Positions 70 through 42,441 of a stretch of DNA of 64,000 bases are shown here, in pieces. The first letter of the stretch is position 1, and every line of letters begins with the position of its first letter. Under the pieces are notes generated by a model. That model saw nothing but the letters and a program-made list of their open reading frames with translations, did not search any database and was not told the origin of the DNA. Source of the stretch: Azolla caroliniana (taxonomy: Eukaryota > Plantae > Polypodiophyta); contig JBHGNT010000011.1 of assembly GCA_043228905.1 (NCBI GenBank), positions 5,704,001 through 5,768,000 of the forward strand. Reading direction: 5' to 3'. A program made the position numbers and the translations under genes.

Positions 70-513
70 GTATGTCAAGCTTCCTAGGTGTAAATAAAAT
101 CATGTTCGTGTTTGGAGGGTTTCAGGGTTTTATAGTTTTAGGGTTTAAGCTTTAAGCTGTAATGTTTTAGAGCTGCATGGTTGTATGGTTTAATCATGTT
201 CTATGGATGTCATTTCCCTAGGTTAATGTATTATTATCTAATGTGATTATTTAGGGTTTAGGGGAGCTTTAAACAAGGTTTAGAGAAGGTTTAAGATTAA
301 GGATTGGGGGAAAGTTTAAGTAGGATTTAGGGGAAGTTTAGGGCTAGGATTCAGGGAAGTTTACCGTTCCATGTATGAGATCTTCCTATGTTTAACTGTA
401 TCATTATCTCATGTGATAATTTGGGTTTTATGATTTAAGAAGGTTTACGGTTTAGGCTAATAGTTGGGGTTTAAAAGTTATACTTTTGCACGACCCAACA
501 GCTCAGACTGCAG
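70..513 (+). other. Probable first intron of PPR-1, rich in degenerate TTTAGGG (telomere/telo-box-like) motifs
   Basis: Canonical GTATGT donor at 70, AT/GT-rich body with many TTTAGGG/GGTTTA variants, and AG acceptors just before PPR-like coding begins. Confidence 0.55.
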
Positions 514-2671
514 TATAACTATTCGGGAATTTAAAGCTCTATGTAAGCAAGGTCATCTTCATAGTGCGATTCGCATCCTTTACTATCTAGAAGAACAGGG
601 ATACCAGAAGAGCTCATATACATATGTATGCCTTTTGCAAGGATGCACTCAATCTAATGCCTTAGAAGAAGGCAGGCTTATTCATGGTGATGTTGTAAAA
701 CATGACCTGAACCCGAATATCTTCATCTCTAGTACAATTATTCATATGTATGCTCGATTGGGTAGCATTGAAGATGCTCAGGTTGTATTTGATGGTATGC
801 CAGAACGGAATTTGGTCACATGGAGTACTATGATTGAAGCTTATTGCCAACATGAGAAATATGAAGAAGCACTTGATGCTTTCTTGAGGATGAGAAAGGA
901 AGATTTGGTACCTGATCTGGTCAACTTTGCTAGTGTTTTCAAGGCTTGCGCTGGTCTCAGAGACCTTGCAAGAGGGAAGACTATTCATGAGCTCCTGAAA
1001 AGAAGTGGAATCAAGGCAAATAATATGTTGGGAAACTCTCTCCTCAATATGTATATGAAATGTGGTAGTATGAACGATGCAAGGGAAGTGTTCGATAACA
1101 TGGAAGAAAGAGATGCAGGGTCTTGGAGTATTATCATTTCAGGATATGCAAAGAATGGAAATGCGGGTGAAGCAATGCGTTTGTTCCAGAACATGCAATA
1201 TTCTAATATAGAACCTGATGAAGTGACATTTTTGAGTATCTTAAATGCATGTGCTGTAATTGGAGATTTGGAACAACTGAACAAAATTTATGATCACATC
1301 AAGAAGAGTGGAGCAAAACTTAGCAATTTCACATGGAATACACTCATTGATGTGTATGCCAAGTGCGGCAGCTTAACAGATGCTCAAAATCTTTTCCTAG
1401 AGATTATGGAACGAGATGCTGTTACTTGGAATGCAATGATTGCAGGGTTGACCAAGCATGGGCATCACGGAGATGCTGTAAGGTTGCACGGACAAATGCT
1501 TATGGAGGGAATTCATCCCGACCCAGTCAGTTTTGTAAGTGTTCTCAATGCTTGTACGGCATCTGAAGACTTGGAATATGGCCAGCGGATCCACTCACAA
1601 ATATTCAAAAGCAAAGATTTTGTCAATGTTTTCGTGGAGAATGCTCTCGTTGATATGTATGCAAAATGTGGAAGCCTAACCACTGCGCGACAAGTGTTCG
1701 AGAATATGCGTAAGCGAAACATTGTCTCTTGGAACACAATGATAGCTGGTTATGGCAAACACAGCCTTGACCATGATGTTTTGCTACTCTTTGAGCGGAT
1801 GTGTGATGAAGGTGTGAAGCCAGATGAGTTCACATATGTAAGCTTGCTCAATGCATGCTCTACAATAGCAGCGTTAGAGCCAGGGATGCAAAGTCACCAT
1901 GACATTCTAATGAGCAATCATGAATTTGATGTGTTTGTGGGGAATGCTCTTATTGACATGTATGCGAAATGTGGGAGGATCATGGATGCTAACAAAGTCT
2001 TAGATAGAATGCCGGAAAAGAGTGTAGTATCATGGAATGCAATGTTGGCAGGATATGCCCAACATGGGTATGGGCATGAAGCTCTAATTTTAGCCCATCG
2101 AATGGGGTGTGAACAAACTGATCTCAACCATGTAAGTTTTGTGGGTATTCTTTCAGCTTGTAGCCATGCGGGATTAGTGGAAGAGGGTAGGTATTGTTTC
2201 CTGTTTATGACTTTCCATCACAAGGTTCCTCGAGCTGTAGAGCACTATGGATGCATGATTGACCTTCTTGGCCGAGCTGGTCATTTACAAGAGGCCGAGG
2301 AGCTTCTTAAAGGGATGCCAAATGATGCGAATGCTAGCATTGTGCTTTGGAGGGCTCTTCTAGGTGCATGTAGAATACATGGAAATATTGAGTTAGCTGT
2401 TCGTGTTGCGGAGCGTGTTCTCGATATGGATCCTGCCGACCCTGGAGTTCTCCTGCTATTGTCCAACATTCATACAACATCTGAACGCTCTTCGCAAGTG
2501 TGTCTCTTGGGCTTCGAGGATGAAGAAAGCATGATCATGATGATGAATGAGAAGGAAGAAGGTGAAGAAGAAGAAGAAGAAGAAGAAGAAGAAGAAGAAG
2601 AAGAAGAAGAAGAAGAAGAAGAAGAAGAGGAAGAGGAAGATGGGTGTAGAGGTTATGATGCATCTGCTTGA
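464..2671 (+). CDS. PLS-class PPR protein with E extension, no DYW domain (PPR-1; organellar RNA-editing specificity factor type)
   Basis: 735-aa ORF of tandem P-L-S triplets (NALVDMYAKCGS..A..VF..M..RNIVSWNTMIAGY), then EHYGCMIDLLGRAG and WRALLGACRIHGN (E region). The ORF-track start is a TTG; the true start probably lies in an upstream exon (donor CAG|GTATGT at 70, candidate acceptor AGs at 501/506/513). Confidence 0.93.
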   Translation: MGFKSYTFARPNSSDCSITIREFKALCKQGHLHSAIRILYYLEEQGYQKSSYTYVCLLQGCTQSNALEEGRLIHGDVVKHDLNPNIFISSTIIHMYARLGSIEDAQVVFDGMPERNLVTWSTMIEAYCQHEKYEEALDAFLRMRKEDLVPDLVNFASVFKACAGLRDLARGKTIHELLKRSGIKANNMLGNSLLNMYMKCGSMNDAREVFDNMEERDAGSWSIIISGYAKNGNAGEAMRLFQNMQYSNIEPDEVTFLSILNACAVIGDLEQLNKIYDHIKKSGAKLSNFTWNTLIDVYAKCGSLTDAQNLFLEIMERDAVTWNAMIAGLTKHGHHGDAVRLHGQMLMEGIHPDPVSFVSVLNACTASEDLEYGQRIHSQIFKSKDFVNVFVENALVDMYAKCGSLTTARQVFENMRKRNIVSWNTMIAGYGKHSLDHDVLLLFERMCDEGVKPDEFTYVSLLNACSTIAALEPGMQSHHDILMSNHEFDVFVGNALIDMYAKCGRIMDANKVLDRMPEKSVVSWNAMLAGYAQHGYGHEALILAHRMGCEQTDLNHVSFVGILSACSHAGLVEEGRYCFLFMTFHHKVPRAVEHYGCMIDLLGRAGHLQEAEELLKGMPNDANASIVLWRALLGACRIHGNIELAVRVAERVLDMDPADPGVLLLLSNIHTTSERSSQVCLLGFEDEESMIMMMNEKEEGEEEEEEEEEEEEEEEEEEEEEEEEEDGCRGYDASA
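2564..2626 (+). repeat. (GAA)21 microsatellite encoding poly-Glu at the C-terminus of PPR-1
   Basis: Perfect GAA run inside the ORF, continued by GAG GAA GAG GAA. Confidence 0.97.
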
Positions 2672-8238: not shown

Positions 8239-8730
8239 TCATTCTACCTCGATTCCGAGGAAGTAGTGGAGCTCCTTCATGTCCGTCATCTCGAACTTGT
8301 CGGAAAGGAGGGATTTGACCTTATTGATTTCGACGAGATGCTCACCTCCAATGACTAGGTCATCCACATATAAGATGATGACGATCGGACTTGCGGAATC
8401 GCTTCGTATGTAGAGGGAGTTGTCTGATTTTGACATACGTAAGCCGATTTGATGAAGATATTGCGTTACCTTCGAATGCCAAGCATGTGGTGCTTGCTTG
8501 AGGCCGTAGAGTGGCTTCTTGAGTCGGCATACAACTTTCAGATGGATGCTCGAGTTGAAGCCGGGTGGTTGTATCATGTACACCTCCTCTTCTAATTCGC
8601 CTTGTAGAAAGGCATTCTTGACGTCCATTTGACGGAGGTGCCACCCTTTCGCTGCTGCAAGCGCTATCACGATTCACACGGTTGTCATCTTTGCCACCGG
8701 GGCAAAGGTCTCTTCATAGTCGACGCCCTT
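8239..8730 (-). pseudogene. Isolated Ty1/copia reverse transcriptase fragment (family close to elements A/E)
   Basis: [33 protein letters not shown] and LYVDDL motifs; no LTRs around it. Confidence 0.92.
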
Positions 8731-9029
8731 GATTGAGGAAGAAACTAGAAAATGGTCTTGAGGTTTCTTTTCCTCGTGTGGATAGGGGTGGTGAGAAGTG
8801 TAGGGACATTCTTGGAAATAAAGGGGAAGTGAAGGGGGGGCATTTTGGAGATTTTCCAATACCATATGGAGATCCATCATTACCCCAATATCATAAAAGC
8901 CACCTTAATCAGATAATATGAACAATATGGCCTCAATGGCTATAGCTATGGCTATGGCATCTTCCTTGGTTTCATAGAGTATGAGATTTCCATTTCCTGC
9001 AATGACCCATCTTTGATCTAATTACAAAG

Positions 9030-11723
9030 ATGCCATTGGTGAGCATACTAGAGGACCCCTTTTGTTGCTCCTCAGAGCTACCTTCCATCGACCATTCTCT
9101 GCACCTTCTACGCAAGATCAAGCAAAACAGAGACTTAAATCATGCCAATAGAGTCATATTTGAGCTCACAAGTCGTGGTTTAGATCTACATATATCTATC
9201 AGAGACTATATAGTCCCTATGCTCGTAGAATGTGGTTCCTCTGCCTCATTTACTCATCAAGTATTCAATCGTTTGCCTTGTGCTAATGAATACACATGGA
9301 CCTCATTAATACAAGTCTATATTGATAATGGGTTCTTTGAATTTGCCCTAGATTTGTTCACTTTGATGCAAAGTGATGGTATTGAACCCACTAGTTATAC
9401 CCTGGTAGCACTTTTGAAGGCTTGTTTGTGCCTCAAAGATCTCGAGAAAGGAAGAGAAATCCATTCGTATGTTTTAAACAATGGGTTTCATAAGAATGCT
9501 TATGTTGGAAGCACTCTCATTGATTTGTATTCGAAATGTGGTTGTATGGATGAGGCTAGAGAAACATTTGAACTATTGCCGAATATGAACGATGAAGAAA
9601 TTGTGGTTCGGAATGCATTGATGGCTGGCTATGCTGAGAATGGATATGCCAAAGAAGCTCTTGAATGCTTGGATGAAATGAAGCAACATGGTGTTGTACC
9701 AGATGTGGTCACTCTTGTTTGTGGTCTAAAAGCCTGTGGAGTTATTGGAGAGATCGAGAAAGGTCAGATTTTAGAATCCGAGGTTATCATAAGGGGTTTT
9801 GATAGAGATATTATTGTCGGTAATAGTTTGATTGGTATGTATGTGAATTGCGGTCTAATTTCTGAGGCACTAAAGGTATTTCAACTTCTGTCGGTTTGTA
9901 ATGTTGTCTCTTGGAACACATTGATTTCACACTATGCTGAGTTTGGGCCATGGATAGAAGCATTGAATCACTTTGAATCCATGCAAAAAGAAAAGATATT
10001 GCCTGATTTTATCACCTTTTGTTGTATTATTAAGGCTTGCACTAATCTAAGAGATTTACAGAAGGGTCAAATTCTACACATGGAGATTATGATGAAAGGA
10101 TTTGAACAAAAAGTTAATGTTGGCAATTCGTTGACTAACATGTATGTAAATTGTGGGTGTTTTTTGGAGGCTTGGCGTGTTGTTTATGGATTACGAGATC
10201 GGGGAGTGGTTACATGGAACACTTTGATCACATCTTATGCTGAAAATGGGCTTGGTGAGGAAGCATTGAGATGTTTTGTACTCATGCAGGCTGAAAATAT
10301 CCTACCAAATCAGATCACGTTGGTTTCAGTATTTAAGGCTTGTGGTAGCATTGGAGCTATTCAGAAAGGCTATGAATTACATATGGAGATGGAGCAGCAA
10401 AAGTCTGAAATGAATGTTTCCATTGGGAATGCTCTAATAGGTATGTATGCTGAATGTGGTTTCGTATTAAAAGCCGAAGAAATCTTTAATACTATGCCTT
10501 TTCGGAATGTCGCTTCATGGATTGCACTTATAGCAGGTTATACTCAAAATGGATTCAATCAAAGTGCTCTTGAAAGCTTTGATAATATGAATTCACATGG
10601 TGTTTCTCCAACAAATGCCACCTTTTCGTCCATATTGAAAGCTTGTGGTAAGAGAGGAGTGACATGCAAGGGTAGAGAAATTCACAACATGATCATCAAG
10701 AGAGGCCTAGAAAATGATGTTTCGGTTGGGAATAGTTTGATCGATATGTATGTGAATATGGGTTTACTTGATGAGGCCCAATTTGTTTTTGATAACTTGC
10801 TAGTGAGAGATGTTGTGGCTTGGAGCTCAATGATAAGAGGATGTGGTACAAATCATGAGGTCAATTTGGCGATATATTTATTTGAGGCTATGCAAAGAGA
10901 TGGTGTGAAACCAAATGCTATTACATTCACGTGCCTTTTGACTGCATGTTGCCATGGTAGACTCATCACTAAGGGCCGAGATTACTTCAGAATGATGAGA
11001 GAAGAACATCACATCTTGCCGACAATAGAACACTATACTTGTATGGTTGATCTCCTTGCGAGGTCGGGGAACCTTCACGAGGCAGAGAGATTCATTGAGA
11101 TGTTGAACATTTCATCTCAAAGTATATGGGCAGCCTTGTTAAATAGCTGTAGAACTTATGTAGATCCAGAGCTTGGCATACGATGCTTTAGTGAGCTTGT
11201 TGGGGTTCATCCAGAAGATGCGACATGGTATGTGCTTATGTCATCTATACATGTGAGTGCTGGGAGGTGTGAGGATGCCTTTAAGATAGAGGAGGTAAGA
11301 AGACATGCTGGAGCAAAGAAGAAGAATGCTAGAGCTTCCATAGAAGTTAATGGACAGATACATACATTTACTGTGGGAGAAGCACAATGTGATCGAGTTT
11401 CCGAAATGCTGAAGGACATGAACATCCACATCCAAGAAGAAAGACATTTTGTGGATATAGATTCGGTTTCAAAGCTCATTCATGATGAGAGTAAGGAAAC
11501 TTCCTTGTGTGATCATGCCGAGAAAGTAGCTATTGCATTTGGGCTTCTTAATACTCCACAAGGCCAGACTTTACGTGTGACGAAAAACTTGAAGATGTGC
11601 AATGACTGTCATAGTGCTAGCAAGATCATATCTCAGCACAAGAAACGGGAAATCATTGTTCGAGATGAATCATGCATTCATCGTTTCAAGGATGGTATAT
11701 GCTCTTGCGGTGATACATTTTGA
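9030..11723 (+). CDS. PLS-class PPR-DYW protein with DYW:KP-like deaminase domain (PPR-2; candidate U-to-C RNA editing factor)
   Basis: 897-aa uninterrupted ORF: PLS array, E1/E2, then [11 protein letters not shown], zinc motif HAEK..CNDCH, and terminus [14 protein letters not shown]. Confidence 0.93.
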
Positions 11724-12666
11724 TGATGAAAATGGAAAATGTGCAAGACAGTTTGCCTTGGGATGAAGCTGAAGTTAGTTTTGGCTCTGAATATATATAT
11801 ATATAACCAATGATATTCTGTTTCGGAAAGTTACAAGGATCAGAAACACAAAATGCTTCAAAGAAGACAAACAAGAACAGGAAGTGCAAACATAGCAGGC
11901 CAAATGGATGCCAAAGTTAAATATCTGAAATCGGTAACCCTACATGAATAGTTTACCTAATGAATGAGTACCACAAGTCAGGAGTTGGTGCACATATTCA
12001 CTCTACAATTACCATAGTTCTAGAAACTATGATTGAGTTAACGAGGCATTTGCAGTTGAGAGTGTACATGAGAGTTTATAGTTACATGTGAATGGCTTAA
12101 TTTTGGAGACAAGCATATGACTACTTACACAAGTTCACCATGTAAGTTATCCAGGGTTATCGGAGGGCCAAACTCTCGTTTGACCTCCATAGATCGTCAT
12201 TTGGTGACAAATTACCTTGAAATGTGGCATAAAGAGGTCCCCCAAGGTACTGTTGCAACACTACAACAGGATGTGGTTACCGTGTTTATTTGTCCCATTA
12301 ACTCAATATTTGCCCTGTTTTCTTTATCAAAAGATCAAAACCAGAGCTACAAAAGACATGGGGTTCCTCTTTGTGAACAGATCGAGAAAAGAAGTTATTG
12401 CGTATTGCCTTTCCGAACCTTTGGTATATACATTGGTAATTTGCCAATGCTCATGTTCAAGCATATGCATTGGACCCAAAGGTTGTAAGATATTGTTGAA
12501 TATGTAGATTACCATGTGATTAATTGGGGTTCATGTACAAGATCTTGTATCATTATCAAGGTCATCGAGCATCTCATTCCTTTATGTCATGTCTCTTGTA
12601 AGAGTAGCCCTAGCTTTACTATGTTAACACTACTAATTATCTTAACTATCACACTACACACATTCC

Positions 12667-25050: not shown

Positions 25051-25492
25051 ATACGTAAGTAACTTATTACTTAGGTAGAAAGTAAGAGAGTAAGAATAGA
25101 GAAGAAGATATACAGAAAGTAGAACTCTGAGAGAGAGATAGTGAGCATAGAGAGAAAGAACTCAGAGAGTGAGAGCAAGAGAGAGAAACAAACGAGAGCA
25201 AGTAGAGCTCTGCGCATAATGAAATAGAAGAAGTTTTTGGCTGCTACAGAGGTAAGTCTCCTTCCCCCTTCCCTTCTGTGTTTGAGCACTAAACGATCTA
25301 GCACACCACGATCCGCCGCGCACATAAGAAGAGCCCGAGTGCCTTCTTCACGTTTTCTTAACATGGTATCAGAGCATAGTTGCTCATAAAGAAGAGTACA
25401 AAAGTGCATAGATCTGAGAAAGGTATTTCTCTGTTTGCTGATCTGCTACAGAGAAAGTTACTTGTTGAAGTAATCGTAGCAGAAACCCTAGT

Positions 25493-28400
25493 TTGGAAGA
25501 GATAATGGCTGCAGAGAATGCGGGCCAAATAGTTACAGAGAAACTAGATAAAAACAATTTCCCGGCGTGGAAATTTAGAATGACAAATTTCCTAATGGGG
25601 AAAGGATACTGGGATTACATTGAAGGAGACCTAGAAGAGGCTCCGGAGATCCCAGAAGAAAATGCCACAGCAGCACAGATTAAAGCATTCAAAGATTGGA
25701 ATCAAGGGGCAAGGAAGGTAATGCATTGGCTCTCACTTAGCATCTCAGATTCGATGCTTGGGCACATACAGGATGCTATGCTCCCAAAAGAAGCTTGGGA
25801 CAGTTTGGTAAAACTGTTTGCAGTAAACACAAAAGCTAGAAAGCTACAGTTGAAGACTGAGCTAAATACCTTAGAAAAAGGTAAGATGTCAATAAATGAG
25901 TATGCCTTAAAAATAAAGAGCATATGTGAATCACTTGCTTCTATCAATGTAAAGATAGAAGATGATGATAAGGTAGAAATATGCTTGAGAGGCTTGGGAC
26001 CCCAATACAAAAGCTTTAAAACCTCTATGCTTACAAGGGATAGTATCCCAAGTTTCTCAGATCTGGTTTCAATGCTTGTAGTAGAAGAAAGGAATCAGAT
26101 GGATGATGTAAATAAAGGAAATCTTGAGAATGAGGGGCAAGCCCTATATAATAGTGCTGGAAGAGGCCGAGGAAGAGGCCATGGAAGATTTGGCTCAGCA
26201 AGAACCCACAATAATGGTTATCAAGGAAGAGGACAACAAACCATTAGAGGAAGAAACAACAACAGAGGCAGGGGGAGCAACCAAGGTAGAGGTAAGCAAA
26301 CATATGTAAATGATGATGGCTGTTGGTATTGTGGAAAACCAGGCCACACACAGGCTGAATGTTACAAGAAGCAAAATGATGAGCAAAGAGGAAAGAGACA
26401 GCAGAATAACTATGCCCAAACTAGTGAAGATTGTGAAAAAGATGGTGCATTTGTGGTACAACATGAGATAGCAGCAGTGGCTGAAAGCTCACAGAAATGT
26501 AATGAAGAGTTTACATGGTATGTAGACTCGGGGGCATCTAACCATATGACTGGACATGCAAACTAGTTTGAAAGGTTGAGAGAACCAGAGATTCCTGGCT
26601 ATGTACAGACGGGTGATAATAGTACTCACCAAATAGAACATGTTGGAGATATTCCATTGTGGGAAGAAAAAGGAAAGACTAAGTATATGTTGAATGTAAT
26701 GCATGTTCCAAATCTTGCTAAGAATCTGATTTCTGTCGGACAGATAGTAGAGCAAGGTATGCAAGTAAAGTTTAAGCAAAGTGGATGCTATATAGAAAAG
26801 AATGGGAAGCTCATTGCAAAAGGGAAACGACAAGGAAGAATGTTTATTTTGGATGTTGACATGCCTAGACAGATCTCAGCTATGTTTGCAAATGGAATGA
26901 GTGTAGTCTCAGATGTGGAAATGTGGCATAAAAGGATTGGCCACATAAGTATGCAAACCCTAAAGAATATGTTGAGAAAAGATGCAGTGGCTGGACTGCC
27001 AAAACTGAAAAATTGTGAAATGGGAAAGATATGTGAAGCATGTCAATATGGAAAGCAAAATAGGTTGCCATTCCCTCATGAAAGACATGTAAGTAAAAAT
27101 TTGTTGGATTTGGTACATACGGATGTATGGGGACCAACTAAGAATGCATCTATCGGTGGCTGCAGATTTTATGTAACTTTTATTGATGATTGCTCAAGGA
27201 AAACATGGGTGTACTTCATGAAAGAGAAAAGTGAAGTGTTTGAATGTTTTCGTAAGTTTAAATGCATGGTAGAAAAGCAGGCAGGTACAAGAATAAAATG
27301 TTTAAGATCTGATGGAGGAGGAGAGTATTTCTCCAATGAATTTTCTGATTTTCTATGCAATCAGGGAATAAGAAGACAGTTCACATGTAGATATACTCCA
27401 CAACAAAATGGAGTTGCTGAGAGTAAAAACAGAACATTGGTGAACATTGCAAGGGCTTTGATGACAGAGAAGAATATGCCATTGTACTATTGGGCAGAAG
27501 CTGTAAATACAGCAAATTATATTCTAAATAGATGTATAACATCGGGAGTACATGAAGCAACTCCTGAAGAGTGTTTCTATGGAAGGAAACCTAGTATAGA
27601 ACACTTAAAAGTGTTTGGATGCCTTGCATATGTACATGTGCCTGCAGAAGTAAGAAGTAAGCTGGATCCAAAGGCAGAAAAATGTATTTTTGTTGGCTAT
27701 TCAGAAGAACAAAAAGGGTATAGATGCTATAACCCTGTAACAAAGAAGATTGTGACAAGTAGGGATGTAATCTTTGATGAGTTAGCCAGCTGGTATAGTC
27801 CAAAACAGAATCCAGAGACTGATGAAGACAATGAGATTGAAGACAAAGACAAATCTGAAAATGTAGAAGACTGCCACAGAGATGGAAGCAAGGTTGGACA
27901 GCAAAGTCCAACATCAACAGAATGTTCTGGACTATCAAAAAGCTCAGATGGTAAATCTGATTCAAATTCTTGGAGTGGAAAAAGTGGAGGACACAAAAAA
28001 TGTGATGATAAAAAAGGAAAACAAAAAATGCCAGAGTATGAAATGTTGGATGACTTGTCTAAAAACATGGAAGATGAGGATTCAGATGTGTCATTGGATG
28101 ATCTTCTTGGTATAAGAGGACTGAAAATCCCTGGTATGGAAAAAGCATTGAAGGATGCAAATCAGAAACTGAGAAGATCAGATAGAGAGAAAAAAATTGT
28201 TGAAAGATTTGGTTATGATACATACATGGCTATGCATTATGCATACATGTCTAAGGTGGTACAGATCCCTGATCCAAGTAGTTTTGATGAGGCTAAAATT
28301 GAGAAGAAATGGGTGGACGCAATGCAAGAAGAGATTGATGCATTGGCTGAAAACAGAACATGGGATTTGGTGAAGTTACCAAAAGAAAAAAATGTGGTAG

Positions 28401-29425
28401 GTTGCAAATGGGTCTACAAGACAAAGCATGATTCCAGTGGGAATGTAAGTAGACATAAAGCAAGATTGGTTGCAAAGGGATATGCCCAAATGCAAGGAAT
28501 TGATTACGATGAGACATTTGCACCGGTTGCAAAGATGGCAACATTGAGGACATTACTGGCTGTAGGTGCAGCCAGAAGATGGTTTCTTCATCATATGGAT
28601 GTAAAAAATGCCTTTTTACATGGTAACTTGGAAGAAGAAGTGTATATGTGTCAACCACCAGGTTTTGAAGATAGGAAGCATCCAGATTATGTATGTAAGC
28701 TGAAAAAGGCTCTCTATGGACTGAAACAGGCACCAAGAACATGGCACAGAGAACTTTCAGATTATCTGAAAAAACTTGACTTCAAAATGTCAAAGGCTGA
28801 TTCATCATTGTATGTTAAAAGGAAAGATGATTGTATGGTTGTGATTCTGATTTATGTTGATGATCTCATCATTGGAGGTGATTTCATGGATGAGATAAGT
28901 AAGCTGAAAAGAAATTTGGAAATGAAATTTCATATGAAAGATTTGGGAGATCTGAGATATTTTTTGGGTATTGAAATCATCAGATCTGAAAGTGGTATAT
29001 GTGTGTTGCAAAGACAATATGCAACAACTATGTTGAAAAAGTATGGTATGCTTGGATGCAAACCTATTGGAGTACCACTAGATAAAAACTGCAAATTGAG
29101 TGCTGATTTGGGAGAGTATATAGACGGTACTGTCACAATCTGGTGTGACAACATGAGCAGCATTCAACTTGCAAAGAACCCTGTGTTCCATGCAAGAACA
29201 AAGCACATTGAAGTGCATTATCACTTTGTTAGAGAAAAAGTGATTGAAGGAGAAGTTGATCTGGTGTATGTGAATACAAATCAGCAGGTTGCTGATATTC
29301 TCACAAAGGGATTGAGTGTGGAAAAGCATACACAGTTTCGGAACATGATGGGAGTTGTAGACATTGATATGATGGCTGAAAAGCATCATGAAAAAGAAGT
29401 TGTAGATAACCCCAAGAAAGGATAA
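25493..29425 (+). pseudogene. B gag-pol with one in-frame TAG (26564) and an internal RT/RNase H deletion (~29125)
   Basis: Gag, CCHC, WYVDSGAS protease, integrase HTDVWGP, RT YVDD; the protein jumps from LGEYID directly to GTVTIWCDN. Confidence 0.92.
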
Positions 29426-32570: not shown

Positions 32571-35500
32571 AGACACATTCGTAAATATGTTTCTGAGAGC
32601 CCATCGAGGCTACACTTGTAAATAGCCGAAAAGTCATATTAGTATAAATATGACTTAGGGCAAACTAATATTATGTAGGTCGTTGTCATTCTTCCTTGTT
32701 GGTGCAAGAAGAAGAGAGAGCGCGTAACTGTACAGAGAGAGAGAGAGAGAGAACGAGGTCATTGCCTCTGTTGTAACCGCCGCCTGTGGCGAAGATCGTG
32801 AGCCCGAGGTCGTTGCCTCCGTGTACTCACTGTTTTGTACATTCATACATAGTGACAGTTTGCAGCCTGTGGGCTGCCGTGGTTTTTTCCCTTAGTTTGG
32901 GGTTTTCCACGTTAACCTCCTGTGTACCATTTCTCTTCTTTGTGTCGTGTTCTATTTCCCGTGTTTCTGTGTATGAGAAGAAGCTCGGTTGTGGCCGAGC
33001 GTTGTGCATAAGGAACGTTGTGTTCCCGTCAAGTGGTATCAGAGCAAAATTGACACAGAAAATGGACGAATCATTTGGCGGCATGTTCAAGCTCACCGGC
33101 TCCAACTATTCAGTATGGAAGTCGAAGATGAGGGACATGCTCGTTGTTAAAGACCGCTGGCTGCCGGTTCAGTTCGGGGACAAGAGACCGGACAAAATTG
33201 ACGCCGCGATATGGGAGGTGATGCACATGAAGACAACGGCGTACATACGGTGCTTCATCGACATGAGCCTGTACAACAACTTCAATGAAGAGAGCAAGGC
33301 TCATGAGCTCTGGGAGAAGATCGGCATAATGTTCCAGAACAAAAATGCTGTCAATCAGGTGTCGGTATTCCGGAAGCTAGTAAGACTCCGGTACCAAGAT
33401 GGCTCCAGCATGGTGGAGCACATGAATGCCTTCCAGGGGCTGATACACCAGGCAACGTCATTGGAAGTACCTCTTGCCGATGAAGTATTAGCGCTACTCC
33501 TGCTCGGCTCCCTCTCGGATAGCTGGGAGACGTTGGTTGTCACTTTGGGCAACGCCGGGCCGGAAGGAAAATGGTTATCCCTAGCAAGAGTAAAGTCGAG
33601 CTTGCTAGATGAGGAGGTGCGTCGGAAAGACAAAGATACGAGCTCCGACTCCAAAGCGCTTCTTACCGAATCGGAACGCGGAAGACATAGAAACCGTAGT
33701 CCCCAGAACCGGGAGAAGTCGGGGACACGGTCAAAGTCAAGGGGGAGGCCTACTTGCTTCTATTGCGGCAAGCCGGGACACTTCCAAAAGAACTGTTGGC
33801 ATTTCCGTAAAGACAAGGAAACCGACGGTACCGACTCGAAGCGGATACCGGACCGGAACGGTAAAGACCGGAGGGGGCCGGACCAGAAGGGGACAATGGC
33901 AATCGCGGCAAGTGAAGAAGAGTTGATGCTCATCACCGAGGAGAGTGAGATAAACCTTGCCGGCGACGAGATGATCTGGGTGGTAGACTCCGGAGCGTCG
34001 TTCCACCTTACCCCGGACCGGAAATGCTTCTCATCCTACTCAGCCGGTGACCACGGCTGTGTCCGGATGGGGAATGAAGGTACATGCCGAATTATCGGCA
34101 TAGGAGATGTGTGGCTCTCAACACCAACCGGATGCAAGTTGCTGCTGAAGGATGTCCGACACGTTCCAGAGGTTCGTCTGAACCTGATATCAGCCAGTCG
34201 GCTAGATGATGAAGGCTACACGGGTAGCATCCGGAACGGGGACATGAAGTTCAGCAAAGGGAGCCTGATTGTGGCTCGGGCCCGGAAGGTAAACACGTTG
34301 TACCTGATGAATGCCCGGTTATGCCCGGAAGAAGTGAACGTGGCATCCGACACTACCGGTGAGCTGTGGCACAAGAGGCTGTGTCACATGAGTGAGAAGG
34401 GGATGAAGAGGCTTGGAGACGACAACCTCATTCCAGTGAAGAACGTGCACTTAGAGAAGTGCACTGATTGTTTGGCTGGTAAGTAGAACCGGACCTCTTT
34501 CCGACCAAGGCCACCGATGAGACGTAATGCACCACTGGAGTTGGTGCATACGGATGTGTGTCAAGTAGACACGAAGTCACATGCCGGAGCGCAGTACTTC
34601 GTGACGTTCATAGATGACCACAGCCGGAAGCTGTGGGCCACACCGTTGAAGACAAAGGATCAGGTGTTATCCGTCTTCAAAGAGCTCCACGTGAGAGTGG
34701 AAAGAGAAACCGGTCGGAAGCTGAAGGCGGTTCGAGCAGATAACGGAGGAGAGTACCGGGGGCAGTTTGAGGAGTACTGCCGCTCGAAGGGAATCCGGTT
34801 CGAATTTACCGTGCCGAAGACGCCGGAACTAAACGGACTGGCCGAGAGGATGAACCGGACCATAATGGAGAGGGTCCGGAGTATGCTAGCGCATGCAAAA
34901 CTACCCAAGAAGTTTTGGGCTGAGGCACTGTCGACAGCGACATATGTGATAAACAGATCACCCTCAGTACCCTTGGACGGAGACACACCACAGAGAGTAT
35001 GGACCGGTAAGGAAGTGTCCTACCAGCATCTGAGGGTGTTCGGGTGTCTCGCGTACGTGCATGTAGCAAAGGACCGGAGAGGAAAGTTAGATCCAAAGAC
35101 CCGGCCATGCATATTCCTCGGTTACGGTGACGATGAGTTCGGCTACCGAGTGTGGGACCCGGTCGACAAGAAGATATTCCGGAGTCGAGATATTATCTTC
35201 ATGGAGGACAAGATGCTCGCCGACTAGGAGTTGGAGAAGAAGATAATGAACTCCGAGTCGACCGGTAAGGATAGACTCTACGATGAGCAGACCCAACCGG
35301 CAAGAGACCGGTTAGCACTCGAGGAACCAGCCGGTTACGGTGAGGATACCGAACCGGCAGAAGAAGAAGTAGAGGAAGCTGAGACTGGAACCGGTCAAGA
35401 CCCCGAATCGGATTCGGATGAAGAGCAAATGGTGGAGCCGGTTACCGAAGCCCGAAGACGTAGATATCGTCTCAGAGAGAGAAGGGCGCCCCGGAGATTT

Positions 35501-37095
35501 CCGGATGCAGAGCATGTTTTGCTGACCGATGGGGGGGAGCCGGAAAGCTTCGAAGAAGCGAAGGAAGACACCCACAGCCGAAAATGGTTGAGTGCCATGC
35601 AGGACGAGATGGATTCCCTGCATGAGAACCATACATACGAATTGGTGGAGTTGCCGAAAGGAAAGCGGGCAGTCCGAAACAAGTGGGTGTACAAGTTGAA
35701 ACCGGGAGATGCCGGCAATCCCCCGAGATACAAAGCCAGGATCGTGGTGAAGGGGTTCCAGCAGAAGAAGGGCGTGGACTTCGACGAGATATTTGCCCCG
35801 GTAGTAAAGATGACCTCCATCCGAACGGTGCTGAGTATAGCAGCAAGCATGGACCTCGAGGTAGAGCAGCTGGACATGAAGACGACATTCTTTCATGGTG
35901 ACCTCGAAGAGGAGATCTACATGCAGCAACCGGAAGGATTCGTGGAGAAAGGGAAGGAGCACCTGGTATGCCGGCTGAAGAAGAGCCTGTACGGACTGAA
36001 GCAGGCTCCCTGGCAATGGTACCGGAAGTTCGACTCCTTCATGACCGATCAAGGGTACCACAAGACGCAGGCTGATCACTGCGTGTTTGTGAAGAAGTTC
36101 GAAGGAGGGGACTTCCTGATACTCCTCCTGTACGTGGATGACATGTTGATCGTCGGATGAGACCAAGTAAAAATACGGATGCTGAAGAAGGCTCTCAACC
36201 GGACCTTCTCAATGAAAGACTTGGATCCGGCAAGACAAATGCTGGGGATGCACATCATTCGGGACCGGTCAGTGAAGCAATTATGGCTGTCACAGGAGAA
36301 GTATGTGACAAAGGTGCTGCACCGGTTCAACATGTCAGAAGCAAAACCGGTCGGATCGACACTTCCTGCAAACTGCAAGCTATCCGGCAAGCAAAGCCCG
36401 AAGATGAAAGCAGAGAAGGCAGATATGATGAAGATTCCATATGCCTCTGCCGTCGGGAGCTTGATGTACACTATGGTGTGTACCCGACCGGACATAGGAT
36501 ACGCAGTCGGAGTGGTGAGCCGGTTCATGAGTAATCCCGGCAAGGAGCACTGGAACGTAGTCAAATGGATACTCCGGTATTTGAAGGGCACTTCAAATAT
36601 GTGTCTCCGATTCGGCTCCGGAAAACCTCAACTGGACGGTTTCACCGATTCGGACATGTCGGCTGATGTGGATACCAGCCGGTCTACATCCGGGTATGTA
36701 ATGACATATGCAGGGGGAGCTGTTTCGTGGCAGTCGAGGCTGCAGAAGACGGTTGCATTGTCAACCACGGAGGCGGAGTACATGGCGGCTGTGGAAGCCG
36801 GTAAGGAAATTTATGGATGAAGGACTTCATCGGAGAGCTCGGTATACGGCAAGAGGAATACCGACTCTATTGCGACAGTCAAAGTGCCATCCACCTTGCT
36901 AAAAATGCGGCCTACCATTCCCGGACGAAGCATATCCAGCAGAGGTATCACTGGATCCGGGAAAGAGTAGATGACTAGGAGTTCGCACTGACGAAGATCC
37001 ACACGGCCGAGAACGGGTCAGATATGCTGACCAAAGTGCTCACACCCGACAAGCTGGATGCATGCCGGAAGAGAATCGGACTGGTAAGACACCCC

Positions 37096-37303: not shown

Positions 37304-40300
37304 AACGACATAGAAACTGTCATACACAGGGAATAAACAGGAATCGAGTGCTTCTTGATCTTCCGCACTGACGACATTGCTCCCAACATCTGGTATCAGA
37401 GCCTCCACAGTAGTCGGTCCTTCAATCCGCTGTCGGCCGTCGTCTCTGCATTCGGTTTCCTGCGTCACTCGAAGAAGAGAGAAGAAGAAGAAGAAAAAAA
37501 AACCAGGTTTGCATCTCATCGAGTTAGATCATCTTGCTTGGAGTAAGCCATCAGGTTGTACTCTGTCCCTTGTGATCGTAACCGCTCGAGGTGAAATCCC
37601 CTTGTACAACATTGACACGATCGTGCTCCTTTCGGTTAAACGGCATACGAAAAGGTCATTGAACGCTGCTCGCTGCTCGTTGTAACCACTCGGTGCAGAT
37701 CGGTCTCAAGACAACGACCCCAAATTCGTGCTTCATCTGGCTGATCGACATTCGGGAGGATCAGTTGGATTCGTCTCCCTCGCTGCTGCAGTCAACCGAA
37801 GCAAAATCGGTCCAGATAATCGGTTTCAATAATCGGTATTCGGCATATATATCCGAACCGAACCGGGCTCACTCCGACTCGGCAACATTCGGGAAGACCA
37901 GTCGGTTCTGTCCCTCAAGTTACCAGAGTCATCAAGAGCAAGTTCAACAATATATATATCCGAAGCCGAACCGACCCGGCTTCAAATCCGACTAGAACGA
38001 TATCGGGTGAGCCAACCGGCTGCACTCCAACAAGGTTCGTAGTCAACTTCGAACCGAGCTTCGTCAACTGAAACCGAATTTGATGGCATCAACATCCGGC
38101 TCGTCAGAAATGAGTCTACGCAAGTTCGATGGATCGAACTTCAACTTCTGGAAGGAACAAATGCAGGACTATCTCATAGTCAAAGGGCAAATCGATCCCA
38201 TCGAAAATGAAGAACCTCCAGAAGGATACAAACCAATTGAGTGGCAGAAGCTGGACAGAATCGTCCGCGCCACAATTCGGATGCACCTATCGGAATCGGT
38301 ATACTTTACGGTGCAATCGTGTACGACAGCATTCGAACTGTGGAAAACGCTGTCGGACACTTACGAAAAGAAGGTCGCCGCAACAAAGATGTTTCTGATC
38401 CGGCGCCTCTACAACTTGCGGATGAAAGAATCCGACTCGGTTCAAGCACACCTCAATGAGTACGAAAGCATAAGCTCCCAAATCTCGTCACAGGGGACGG
38501 CAATCGAGGATGAACTCAGAGCAATGATACTCATGAGTAGCCTTCCCTCATCATGGGAAACTTTCGTCACAACCGTGTGCAACGCGTCAACCACGGCTGT
38601 CAAATACTCCGAAGTCACGAGCGCAATCCTAACCGAAGCAGCTCGGAGAAAGTCTTTTGCCAAAGACTCAACAGACGACGCTTACGTAGTACAAGGTTCG
38701 ACAGACCGATCGAACATACGAGGAAGAGATTCCTCACGGCCGCCGAACAATCAGCGAAGACGGAGCCAGTCACGGGATAACCGAATCTGCAACTATTGCA
38801 AGAAACCCGGACACATCAAAGCCGACTGCCGCGCACTCAAGAACAAGAACAACAAGAAGAGTGGCCGGCATGAGGAGATCAACTACGTCAGCTTCTCAGC
38901 TGATGTACTGCCGGACGACCCGAATATACTATCAATCGAAAATCCGGTCGGATCAGAAGCTCTACTCACGACTGAAGAATCGAGCACATGGCTCTTAGAC
39001 TCGGGTGCGTCATTTCACGTGACTCCTCATCGATCCCAATTTCGGCAATATACGATCCGTCACTCCGACTCAGTTCGAGTCGGCAACTCACAACACTGTG
39101 ACATCATCGGAATCGGCACAGTAGAGCTCAACCTTGCAGGTGGCTCTACACTTGTACTCCACAATGTCCGACATGTACCCGAGCTCTCAAGGCCATTGAT
39201 CTCAGTCGGACAACTAGATGAAGACGGCATTCGTGCCGGCTTTTCTTCAGGAGGGTGGACACTCCACAGGGGGAACCTCCTGCTTGCTAGAGGACCCAAG
39301 ATACACTCACTGTATCCGTTACATGTTACGCTCAGAGAGGGTAACCTGTTTTTGGTGGATATTCCTGTGTCATCACTATGGCACAGAAGATTAGGACACC
39401 TCAGCAAGGCCGGCATCACGCATCTATCTAGAGCCGGATACATCCCAAAACTCTCCTTCTCCGACCATCAATTCTGCGAGCATTGCCAGTATGGCAAACA
39501 AGCAGCTGCATCACACCCGACATCAGCACCAAGAGAAACGAGACCTCTTGATTTAGTCCATTCGGACGTCTGTGGCCCAATGCCGCATCAGTCTCTAGGC
39601 GGTGCCTCTTACTTCGTCAGTTTTATTGACGATTCGACTCGAAAGGTGTGGGCTTATCCAATTCGCACCAAAGATCGTGTCTTCTCGATCTTCACCGATT
39701 GGCTCGCTATGGTGGAAAATCAAACCGACCGAAAGCTGAAATGCTTTCGAACCGACAACGGGGGAGAGTTTAAATCCGAAGAATTCGTCAAATTCTGCCG
39801 ACAACGCGGCATCCGACGTGAACTTACGGCACCACACAGTCCGGAGCAAAACGGGATTGCAGAACGAATGAATCGGACAATCCAAGAACGGACAGTTTCC
39901 ATGCTCCAACACTCCGGACTGTCGGATGGCTTCTGGGCAGAGGCTCTACTCACGGCAGTACACATAATCAATATGTCGCCAAGTAGACCTCTAGGACTTC
40001 AAATTCCTCAGGAACTATGGATCGGCAGTAAGCCGAATTACGACAAGCTGAGGATCTTCGGATGCGAGGCGTACGCCCTTATTCCGAAAGATGATCGCCG
40101 AAAACTTGCACCTCGGTCCAGGAAATGCATTTTCCTTGGATATGGATCAGACGGAGAAATGGGATACCGACTCTGGGACCCCGAACGCAGACAAATCGTT
40201 CGAAGTTCGGACGTTGTGTTCAACGAGTCGGCTATGAATCCATCAGTCGACAAACCGATCGAAGTCCGAAGGGTAACATTTTCCGATGTGCCGACCCTTC

Positions 40301-42441
40301 AAGAAGGCCCCGCTCTCCACACACGGTCAGCTTCACGGGTAGCTGAACCTTACACTACCGACTCGGACAACTCCGACTCGGCACAGCAGAACAATCCGCT
40401 TTCGGACCATCCGACCACGATACCCGATGCGACCAGTCCAATCATACCTCGACGATCCGAGAGACTGTCGCAACCTCCGGAGAGGTACTCTCCTGGAGTT
40501 TTCTTCACCGACGCCGGCGAACCGACGTCTTACGAAGAAGCATCGACATCTGTCGATTCCGCCACCTGGCATCTGGCGATGGAGTCAGAAATGCACTCCA
40601 TTCGGGCAAACAAGACTTGGGATCTGGTCGAATTACCCAGGAACCGACGTGCTCTTCCTTGCAAGTGGGTTTATCGACTAAAAGAGACGTCTGATTCGAC
40701 CACCCCAAAGTACAAGGCCAGATTAGTTGCGAAGGGCTTCCGACAAGAATATGGCATCGACTTCGACGAGATTTTCTCACCAGTGGTGAAAATGACAACC
40801 CTTCGTTTTCTGCTCGGCGTAGTGGCAGCCGACAACTTGGAGCTGATTCAGCTAGATGTCAAAACAGCCTTCCTCCATGGTGATCTCGAGGAGGAAATTT
40901 ATATGGAGCAGCCAAAAGGCTTCGTGGCACCTGGCCAAGAACATCTAGTCTGCCGACTCAGGAAGAGTCTATACGGCCTCAAACAGGCACCGCGACAATG
41001 GTACAAGAAGTTCGACGACTTCATCCAATCGATCGGCTTCTCAAAAAGCGATGAGGACCATTGTCTCTTTACCAACACAGCTCAAGATGGATCACCCATC
41101 TTCCTCATCATTTACGTGGACGACATGCTAATTTCTGGACGCCACGCGGGCGAACTTGCCGATCTCGTTCGGCAACTGCGGTTGAAGTTTGCCATGAAGG
41201 ACCTCGGTCCGGCACGACACATACTCGGCATGAAGATTAGTCGCCATCGCGATAAACGACATCTTTTTTTGTCTCAGACCGACTACATCGGACGTGTCTT
41301 GGAACGCTTCAACATGCAATCAGCCAAATCTGCTTCAACCCCGCTCCCCATGAATCTTCGGCTCTCTCAGCGAGACTGCCCGACATCCGGTCCGGAGGGG
41401 GAAGATATGAAGTCGGTACCGTATGCACCGGCAGTCGGCTCCCTTATGTACCTGATGGTCGCGACACGGCCTGATATTTCTCATGCCGTAGGAGTCGTTA
41501 GCAGATTTATGCACAATCCTGGCCGATCGCATTGGAACGCAGTCAAGCATGTGTTCAGATATCTGGCTGGCACAAAAGACCATGGCATTCTTTTCGGTCC
41601 GAACCGAACCTCAGGCGTAGTCGGTTACACCGACTCGGATTTCGCCGGCTGTATAGACAGTCGGAAATAAACAACCGGATACTGCTTCAAATTCGGCAAT
41701 GGAGCAATCTCGTGGAAGTCGAAACTTCAGGAGTGCACAGCGACCTCAACGACCGAAGCAGAATATGTAGCTGCGTCCGACGCAGCAAAAGAAGCTTTGT
41801 GGCTCGGTCGGCTGGCGCACACATTTCAACAAGTCGACCATGACTCGGCTCCAGTTGTCTACAGCGACAGTCAAGGTGCTGTTGCTCTGTCGAAAAATCC
41901 GGTTCATCATAACGCCTCCAAACATATCGACGTTCGATATCACTTCGTTCGGGACTGCGTCATTTCAGGGAAAATCGGTCTAGAGAAAATATCCACAACC
42001 GACAATGTCGCAGATGGAATGACCAAGTGTCTTTCGGCAGACCGTTTTCGGTCTCTTCGGCATCAGATGGGCGTAACGACAAACCAGTCCGGTTAGAGCC
42101 GGACACAGAGCAGGATGGTTCCCGACAACCAACATCAGTTCCTTAATGATCGGCTTCAACTGTTCCGACCCGACCAGTTCGGTCTTCTGCCTTCGGACCC
42201 TGCCGACCCGAACAAAGCTGATATGTCCGAGAACCCAAGTCTATACCTGTATACGCCCATTACGGGGGAGTGTCGAATACATGTGTATAATGGACGTATT
42301 CACACTATTCCGTTTTGGCCATTTATGTAATTAGCATAAAGGGTAGTTGCCCTAAGACAGTCACTATATATAGTGACCTTGTAACCTCTTTGTGAGGTTG
42401 GTTGTTGTATTATTTGCCTTATGAAAGAAAGTTTCTTTGTG

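What the first reader, a model, noticed from the sequence alone, without database searches (positions are those of the whole stretch)
11310..11723. PPR-2 carries a DYW:KP-type deaminase domain: candidate reverse (U-to-C) RNA editing enzyme
Seen: the PG box (PGxSWIE) is replaced by [11 protein letters not shown], the SHP segment is missing ([15 protein letters not shown]), the zinc site is HAEK..CNDCH (11514) rather than HSEK, and the terminus is HRF..CSCGDTF rather than DYW. Known: this combination characterises the DYW:KP clade of ferns, hornworts and some lycophytes, which has been tied to U-to-C editing. Here the KP itself reads KN and the triplet is DTF, so it is a further variant. Inference: a natural, intact candidate U-to-C editor with an unknown organellar target.
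Basis: partly seen in the sequence, partly recalled or inferred. Interest (0 to 1): 0.75.

Follow-up and report, generated by a model that had tools for sequence, protein, structure and literature searches.

The report
Fern reverse RNA-editing enzyme, ordinary member
This intact plant gene encodes an RNA-binding repeat protein whose end domain falls in a known group of fern editing enzymes, so it likely changes a U to a C in an organelle RNA; it is an ordinary member of that group, and its own activity and target are untested.

Summary
Bases 9030-11723 are an uninterrupted gene of 897 aa: PLS-type PPR repeats, E1-E2 and a 133-aa DYW domain (11322-11720). The domain has no PG box, lacks the three-residue xHP segment, and has HAE, Met92, Lys88, all zinc ligands and a D-T-F end.

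Two trees place it inside the DYW:KP clade (100/100) and inside a fern-type subclade (100/99) that matches the designer editor KP6, which ends D-M-F.

It is not a further variant. Only 8 of 18 clade members have literal KP and 11 of 18 end D-x-F. A 99% identical contig ends D-A-F.

The direction of editing is not settled by these motifs. KP6 works both ways in human cells, four of seven designer KP proteins were inactive, and this protein mixes residues that tuned KP6 towards each direction.

The gene is under purifying selection. The domain has some unusual substitutions (R91K, G41R, E15T), a weak hint of decay. Organelle, target and expression were not determined. Two look-ups found no earlier scan report of this on other DNA.

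Verdict: new member of a known kind; likely a U-to-C editor (0.6); low interest.

The parts
9030..11723 (+). Uninterrupted PLS-class PPR-E1-E2-DYW:KP gene, 897 aa plus stop (start codon assumed to be the first ATG of the frame)
   Evidence: colinear over 884 columns (42% identity) with the 894-aa Ceratopteris protein KAH7331570.1
9030..9287 (+). Short leader (about 20 aa, not like a typical transit peptide) and two degenerate L- and S-like repeats
   Evidence: read by eye; the Ceratopteris homolog has an equally short leader
9288..10811 (+). Five P1-L1-S1 triplets (RNA-recognition array); the first S1 carries a 3-residue insertion
   Evidence: Pfam PPR_2/PPR hits; boundaries read by eye; insertion seen as a gap
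10812..11117 (+). P2-L2-S2 triplet (35, 36, 31 aa)
   Evidence: by eye; helical repeats in the model
11118..11321 (+). E1 and E2 motifs (34 aa each)
   Evidence: Pfam E_motif, weak and below its cut-off; alignment to 9KFX; by eye
11322..11720 (+). DYW:KP-clade deaminase-fold domain, 133 aa, KP6-type subclade
11322..11327 (+). Lys1-Asn2 at the position of the name-giving Lys-Pro pair
   Evidence: unchanged in L001 and with no listed difference in X3
11514..11525 (+). His65-Ala66-Glu67-Lys68: first zinc ligand, KP-type Ala, catalytic Glu
11583..11585 (+). Lys88, the active-site lysine required for U-to-C editing in designer KP proteins
   Evidence: position by colinear numbering
11592..11594 (+). 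Lys91 in place of a nearly invariant Arg (OTP86 R918, 9KFX R568; PPR-DYW interface)
   Evidence: Arg in 27 of 28 clade members and 183 of 189 rows overall; role from PMC13324415
11598..11612 (+). Cys93-x-x-Cys96 (catalytic zinc) and His97 (second zinc site, with His120, Cys127, Cys129)
11712..11720 (+). Terminal D-T-F triplet (D-A-F in L001, X7, X8)

Best explanation
The gene encodes an intact PPR protein whose end domain belongs to the DYW:KP clade and its KP6-type subclade, and it likely works as a fern organellar editing factor that binds one RNA site and likely turns its U into C. Shown here: the architecture, the clade, an intact active site (His65, Glu67, Cys93, Cys96, Lys88, second zinc site) and purifying selection. 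Inferred from the family: import into plastid or mitochondrion; one-repeat-one-base binding of a pyrimidine-rich stretch upstream of the edited base (by-eye code: A at -6, U at -7, -15 and -18, pyrimidine at -10, -12 and -16); docking of the domain on P2-L2-S2-E1 as in 9KFX. Taken from work on designer proteins and not proven in plants: Lys88 attacks C4 of the uridine to form a covalent RNA-protein link that is later resolved to cytidine. Some C-to-U side activity, as in KP6, is not excluded.
For: Trees: inside the KP clade at 100/100 and inside a 19-row HAE, mostly 133-aa subclade at 100/99, with 20 PG rows on the other side (53 rows picked from 188); the same nesting at 0.992 and 0.997 with 188 rows. 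The 14 best homologs of the first search are all KP-type, and those with a species name are from Ceratopteris and Adiantum. At the 43 KP6 positions mutated in PMC11845758, this protein has the KP6 residue at 17, the general KP consensus residue at 5 and another residue at 21 (by eye). KP6 ends D-M-F, came from 287 fern domains and gave about 50% U-to-C editing and no C-to-U in E. coli (PMC9478123). Lys88 is present. The model of P2 to DYW has pLDDT 91 and matches 9KFX with TM 0.90. Differences in related runs: 20 synonymous to 16 non-synonymous, omega about 0.23-0.32, p <= 0.0007 against neutrality. The catalytic half (positions 61-133) is as close to the clade majority as a median member, 0.79 against 0.81.
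Against: No natural KP protein had been shown active as of PMC11845758. Four of seven designer KP proteins were inactive, and KP6 also edits C-to-U in HEK293T cells and only C-to-U in vitro. Lys88 and HAE do not decide the direction. The protein carries Val113, which shifted KP6 towards C-to-U, beside Thr17, which shifted it towards U-to-C. It departs from nearly fixed clade residues (Glu15, Gly41, Arg91, Glu107) and ranks second lowest of 29 in identity to the clade majority over the domain. No transit peptide is evident, and target and organelle are unknown.
Confidence: 0.6

Rival explanations
1. It is a KP-clade protein that works mainly or equally as a C-to-U deaminase in the plant (a two-way or re-reversed editor), using Glu67 and zinc-bound water in the usual hydrolytic way.
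For: It sits in the subclade of KP6, the one designer KP protein that edits both ways in human cells and only C-to-U in vitro. It has Val113; L113V gave 51% C-to-U against 12% U-to-C in replicate 1 and is named as a C-to-U shift in the text. All residues for hydrolytic deamination are present.
Against: KP6 gave only U-to-C in E. coli. Thr17 points the other way, and Phe133 is the unshifted KP6 residue. The KP clade is confined to lineages with U-to-C editing. Effects of single changes in a designer protein need not carry over.
Confidence: 0.17
2. The deaminase domain is losing its function. The repeat array is kept as an RNA-binding specificity factor, and catalysis, if any, comes from a separate donor domain.
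For: Substitutions at nearly fixed clade positions: Glu15 to Thr (Glu in 27 of 28), Gly41 to Arg (28 of 28), Arg91 to Lys (27 of 28), Glu107 to Lys (25 of 28). Arg91 and His121 correspond to interface residues whose Ala mutants fell below 50% activity in OTP86. Listed differences split 8 non-synonymous to 1 synonymous in the domain against 8 to 19 in the repeats, Fisher p 0.005-0.02. Editing by donor domains in trans is proposed to dominate in ferns.
Against: The test was post hoc and used only the 40 listed rows of 134. With a pooled synonymous rate the domain still has omega 0.34-0.49 (6 amino-acid changes against 12-18 expected if neutral), and the excess per codon is not significant, p = 0.12. 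No stop or frameshift is listed in the domain for any run laid or in L001. The departure count at conserved positions (6 of 57) is matched by two other members. Positions 20-60 are the most variable part in 8 of 10 close pairs, and Ala changes in this gating region kept over 90% activity in OTP86. Lys91 also occurs in P0043.
Confidence: 0.15
3. It serves mainly as a catalytic donor: other PPR proteins that lack a DYW domain recruit its KP domain to many U-to-C sites.
For: Fern transcriptomes hold thousands of PLS proteins but few full-length DYW:KP proteins (4 to 16 in four Schizaeales species), and action in trans is proposed there and in Salviniales. Changes at interface positions 91 and 121 could loosen the tie to its own repeats (inference).
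Against: The proposed donors have short or no PPR tracts. This protein has a long array under purifying selection with mostly canonical code residues (about 7 of 11 P and S repeats, by eye).
Confidence: 0.08

Closest known systems
KP6, designer fern DYW:KP editor (Ichinose et al. 2022, PMC9478123; 2025, PMC11845758) and the natural fern subclade it was built from
   Same: 133-aa domain with gap-free colinear numbering; HAE; Lys88; Met92; Phe133; D-x-F end (KP6: D-M-F); the KP6 residue at 17 of 43 mutated positions; about 85 of 133 identical in all and 58 of 72 over positions 62-133 (by eye from the primer table, not computed).
   Different: A natural protein with five PLS triplets and an unknown target; Asn2, Thr15, Arg41, Lys91, Val113, Thr132. 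Activity untested. KP6 itself was not in my trees; the label 'KP6-type' is mine.
Ceratopteris richardii KP509_20G040800 (KAH7331570.1, 894 aa; P0193, P0002) and KP509_20G040700; Adiantum DYW:KP proteins
   Same: Same length and layout, same short leader, 42% identity over the whole protein and 55% over residues 700-897; same subclade.
   Different: It keeps literal KP and ends D-M-F. Orthology is not shown (support 93/79 for the three-row group). These proteins are annotated as hypothetical or as DYW-domain proteins only.
Hornwort GRP and DRH types and other KP subclades (designer KP1-KP5, KP7)
   Same: KP clade, HAE or HCE, no D-Y-W end.
   Different: Rows ending GRP, DRP or DHH form a sister group (99/95) outside the subclade of this protein.
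DYW:PG C-to-U deaminases (OTP86 7O4E/7O4F, DYW1 7W86, consensus PPR-DYW 9KFX)
   Same: Fold (TM 0.90 to 9KFX), both zinc sites, catalytic Glu, active-site Lys.
   Different: PG box, xHP segment, HSE and the D-Y-W end are all absent here; separate clade.

Membership tests
PPR-DYW:KP subclass | PLS array followed by P2-L2-S2, E1, E2 and a DYW-fold domain | tested here: met
   repeat boundaries by eye
PPR-DYW:KP subclass | Groups with KP domains and apart from PG domains in a tree | tested here: met
   100/100, 0.992. Groups were labelled by me from motifs; no experimentally tested KP protein was in the tree.
PPR-DYW:KP subclass | KP-type N-terminal box in place of the PG box (consensus Lys-Pro at positions 1-2) | tested here: inconclusive
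   The PG box is absent and Lys1 is present, but the Pro is replaced by Asn. The literal pair is a consensus, not a strict mark: 8 of 18 clade members have it, and Pro2 is in 18 of 28. Asn2 was in 0 of 28.
PPR-DYW:KP subclass | Loss of the xHP segment (132-133 aa domain), as in most KP proteins | tested here: met
   133 aa against 136 aa
PPR-DYW:KP subclass | Ala or Cys in place of Ser in H-x-E; Met at position 92 | tested here: met
   Ala66 and Met92; features
PPR-DYW:KP subclass | Zinc ligands, catalytic Glu and Lys88 intact | tested here: met
   necessary but shared with PG domains
PPR-DYW:KP subclass | Scores as DYW:KP with the published PPRfinder profiles | not testable with these tools
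   These profiles (Gutmann et al. 2020, seen only as cited) are not among the libraries
PPR-DYW:KP subclass | Host is a hornwort, lycophyte or fern with organellar U-to-C editing | tested here: inconclusive
The named closest relatives are ferns and the KP6 subclade is described as fern-specific.
PPR-DYW:KP subclass | U-to-C editing activity on an organellar target; organellar import | not testable with these tools
   No assay, no host organelle genome, no targeting predictor
KP6-type fern subclade | 133-aa HAE domain with D-x-F-type end, grouping with fern sequences | tested here: met
   19-row subclade at 100/99; Asp131 in 27 of 28 and Phe133 in 18 of 28 members; KP6 ends D-M-F
DYW:PG (C-to-U) subclass | PG box, xHP segment, HSE, D-Y-W end and PG clade | tested here: not met
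DYW:WW subgroup (name recalled) | Two Trp residues in the N-terminal box | tested here: not met
   The box has no Trp; the two WW-bearing rows P0094 and P0133 lie outside the KP clade

The most novel reading that the evidence does not exclude
This is a natural, full-length, two-way RNA editor. It is a KP6-type enzyme with its own long targeting array, whose mix of direction-tuning residues (Thr17 with Val113) and altered repeat-domain interface (Lys91, Arg121) lets it switch one organellar site between U and C. That would be the first natural case of the two-way behaviour seen so far only in a designer protein.
Probability: 0.12. Interest if true: 0.65.

Novelty: new member of a known kind. 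Interest (0 to 1): 0.22.

Why it matters
How plants finish U-to-C editing is still open. The work I found uses designer consensus proteins, which stay cross-linked to the RNA, whereas edited RNA in the fern Ceratopteris is free (PMC11332814). PMC11845758 states that the activity of natural KP proteins is unknown. An intact natural full-length KP protein is therefore usable test material, and such proteins are few per fern transcriptome (4 to 16 in four species, PMC13263110). This gene has no advantage over its Ceratopteris homolog, which lies in a model species with listed editing sites, and it carries more unusual substitutions. It adds one more candidate and does not open the question further.

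Tried and rejected
Host genome: none is held, so paralogues were not counted, and no organelle sequence was available for target prediction.

Expression: no RNA holder listed. X7 and X8 are only guessed to be RNA and were laid as contigs, so they say nothing on expression or splicing.

Second read-laying: only X3 covered the domain. X8, X10 and X12 gave only a short paralogous piece, so no full orthologue set was obtained.

Orthologue searches: the exact protein is not in the collection. Best identities were 59% over residues 700-897 and, among short proteins, 55% over residues 600-897 or 60% over a partial match. The metagenome scan gave 2 loci from 142 candidate stretches: one near-identical (L001) and one weak (L002, 40% over 53 residues, not followed).

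Folding: the single-sequence fold failed (pLDDT 39.5) and was not used.

'KN and DTF mark a new variant': rejected.

'The domain evolves neutrally': first suggested, then weakened; kept only as a minor rival.

Repeat boundaries and code residues rest on reading by eye, not on a computed parse.

Earlier scan notes: none by sequence; two notes by words, on a different fusion in peat moss, not relevant.

Literature: searches found no paper that shows activity or a target for a natural DYW:KP protein. The library lacks most subscription journals, and a term with a colon could not be searched.

Full report
The observation. The window is repeat-rich plant nuclear DNA with two PPR genes and many retrotransposon remnants. 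The second PPR gene is an open frame at 9006-11723 with its first ATG at 9030, giving 897 aa. Pfam finds PPR repeats, a weak E motif and DYW_deaminase at E = 6e-32. Read by eye, the layout is a short leader, two degenerate repeats, five P1-L1-S1 triplets, P2-L2-S2, E1, E2 and a 133-aa domain at 11322-11720. One contig of run X1 spans 8728-11805 with 11 differing letters and no indel in the frame. An independent contig, L001, matches the 3' part at 99%.

Which family. A search with residues 700-897 gave 42 proteins at E <= 1e-20 among 291 candidates. The best 14 (49-59% identity) all lack the PG box and xHP segment and have HAE. Those among them with a species name are from Ceratopteris and Adiantum. 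A second library gave 150 listed hits. One protein without the motif was dropped and two short ones. In a FastTree tree of the remaining 188 rows, the query lies in a 19-row subclade (0.997) inside a 51-row KP clade (0.992). An IQ-TREE run on 53 rows that I picked from these (query, 18 subclade members, 14 other KP, 20 PG) gave 100/100 for KP against PG and 100/99 for the subclade. The labels are mine, and no tested KP protein was in the trees. A model of the P2-to-DYW part built on 47 sequences has pLDDT 91 and matches the PPR-DYW structure 9KFX at TM 0.90. This confirms the fold but cannot tell the direction of editing.

Relation to KP6. PMC9478123 (parts 1-3 of 6 and supplement file 2 read) built KP6 from a fern-specific subclade of 287 DYW sequences; its cloning primer shows a D-M-F end. 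PMC11845758 (parts 1-2 of 4, and part 1 of two supplement files) numbers the domain 1-133, and that numbering fits this protein without gaps: Lys88, Met92, Phe133. At the 43 KP6 positions mutated there, this protein has the KP6 residue at 17, the general KP consensus residue at 5 and something else at 21 (by eye). By eye from the primer table, about 85 of 133 residues are identical. The alignment figures of these papers are not held as text, so this comparison was not computed.

Not a further variant. Among 18 subclade members, positions 1-2 read KP in 8, LP, KA, KR and EP in 2 each, and KI and NT in 1 each; 11 of 18 end D-x-F. In a wider set of 28, Pro2 is in 18, Asp131 in 27 and Phe133 in 18, and position 132 holds eight different residues. 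Neither Asn2 nor Thr132 occurs in those 28, but L001 and runs X7 and X8 have Ala132. The middle letter of the triplet therefore varies even among near-identical copies.

How it likely works. By family knowledge the repeats bind the RNA upstream of the edited base, one repeat per base, with S2 at -4. The fifth and last residues read by eye are ND three times, NN three times, SN once and NG once among 11 P and S repeats, with three non-canonical pairs. This predicts a pyrimidine-rich site with A at -6. The domain would dock on P2-L2-S2-E1 as in 9KFX (PMC13324415, section 11 and passages). In designer KP proteins Lys88 is needed for U-to-C editing and is proposed to attack C4 of uridine, leaving an RNA-protein link that plants must resolve (PMC11713852, part 1 of 3; PMC11332814, part 1 of 6). 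All residues needed are present. None of this was tested for this protein.

Limits on the direction. Lys88 is in 178 of 189 aligned rows, PG domains included. [quoted passage not shown] Four of seven designer KP proteins were inactive. KP6 gave only U-to-C in E. coli, both reactions in HEK293T cells and only C-to-U in vitro. Single changes tuned KP6: V17T towards U-to-C and L113V towards C-to-U. This protein has both Thr17 and Val113. Clade membership therefore makes U-to-C the most likely role (0.6), with two-way or C-to-U activity a real rival (0.17).

Is it still functional? I classed 36 listed differences inside the frame from related runs. Of these, 35 come from the 40 rows shown out of 134 (four rows outside the frame and one likely paralogue row were left out) and one comes. 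Twenty are synonymous and 16 are not, giving omega about 0.23-0.32 and p <= 0.0007 against neutrality. The split is uneven: 8 non-synonymous to 1 synonymous in the domain against 8 to 19 in the repeats (Fisher p 0.005-0.02, post hoc). The domain also departs from nearly fixed clade residues (Glu15, Gly41, Arg91, Glu107) and ranks second lowest of 29 in identity to the clade majority. Arg91 and His121 match interface residues whose Ala mutants fell below half activity in OTP86 (PMC7611903 passages).

Against decay: with a pooled synonymous rate the domain has omega 0.34-0.49, with 6 amino-acid changes where 12-18 are expected under neutrality, and the excess per codon is not significant (p = 0.12). 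The catalytic half is at the clade median (0.79 against 0.81), and the divergence lies mostly in positions 1-60, of which 20-60 is the most variable part in close pairs. No stop or frameshift was listed in the domain. I give decay 0.15. A donor role in trans, proposed for ferns in PMC13263110 and PMC12548569 (passages), gets 0.08, because this protein has a long conserved array of its own.

What stays open. The leader is about 20 residues and not like a typical transit peptide, but the Ceratopteris homolog KAH7331570.1 is equally short and colinear. Organelle, target and expression were not determined.

Novelty. DYW:KP proteins are a catalogued subclass of hornworts, lycophytes and ferns (Gutmann 2020 and Gerke 2020 seen only as cited). 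PMC11845758 says that the activity of natural KP proteins is unknown. My searches and the passages of a 2026 assay paper (PMC13656186) showed no later demonstration, within a library that lacks most subscription journals. This gene is one more intact candidate among several hundred of its subclade and offers no special handle on the open question. Verdict: new member of a known kind, interest 0.22.

Noticed in passing
window 464-2671 (+): A second PLS-class PPR gene with an E1 motif and a cut-off E2, followed by a long poly-Glu run from a GAA repeat (about 2565-2640) and no DYW domain. By eye its E1 looks PG-type, so it may be a specificity factor that needs a donor deaminase.
   Followed up: partly
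window 8927-8977 (+): A 16-codon frame with repeated ATGGCT units, rich in Ala, Met and Ser like the start of a transit peptide, lies about 100 bases upstream of the gene in another frame. A GT at 8969 and an AG at 9028-9029 could splice 14 codons in frame onto the ATG at 9030. Not supported by data: a contig of X8 aligns through 8986-9029, and X1 has a 6-base deletion at 8939.
   Followed up: partly
window about 9590-9600 (+): A three-residue insertion at the end of the first S1 repeat, absent from the two homologs compared; it may disturb base reading at that repeat.
   Followed up: no
window 11606 (runs X6, X7, X8): Related runs have Glu in place of Asp95 inside the CxxC motif; 2 of 28 clade members also have Glu.
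   Followed up: partly
protein P0020 (ENA, 856 aa): Looks like a mosaic: a PG-like N-terminal half of the domain with HSE, and a KP-subclade-like C-terminal half ending D-L-F. It could be a natural recombinant or an assembly chimera.
   Followed up: no
proteins P0002 and P0014: Two Ceratopteris members of this subclade have neighbouring locus tags (KP509_20G040800 and KP509_20G040700), which suggests a tandem pair.
   Followed up: no
window 25469-29425, 32777-36820, 38011-41670 (+); 45150-49532, 53807-58573 (-): Several Ty1/copia-like retrotransposon frames, most broken by stops (read; not searched).
   Followed up: no
L002:4001-4144: A weak 53-residue match (40%) in a 114-kb metagenome contig; probably not a DYW domain.
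   Followed up: no
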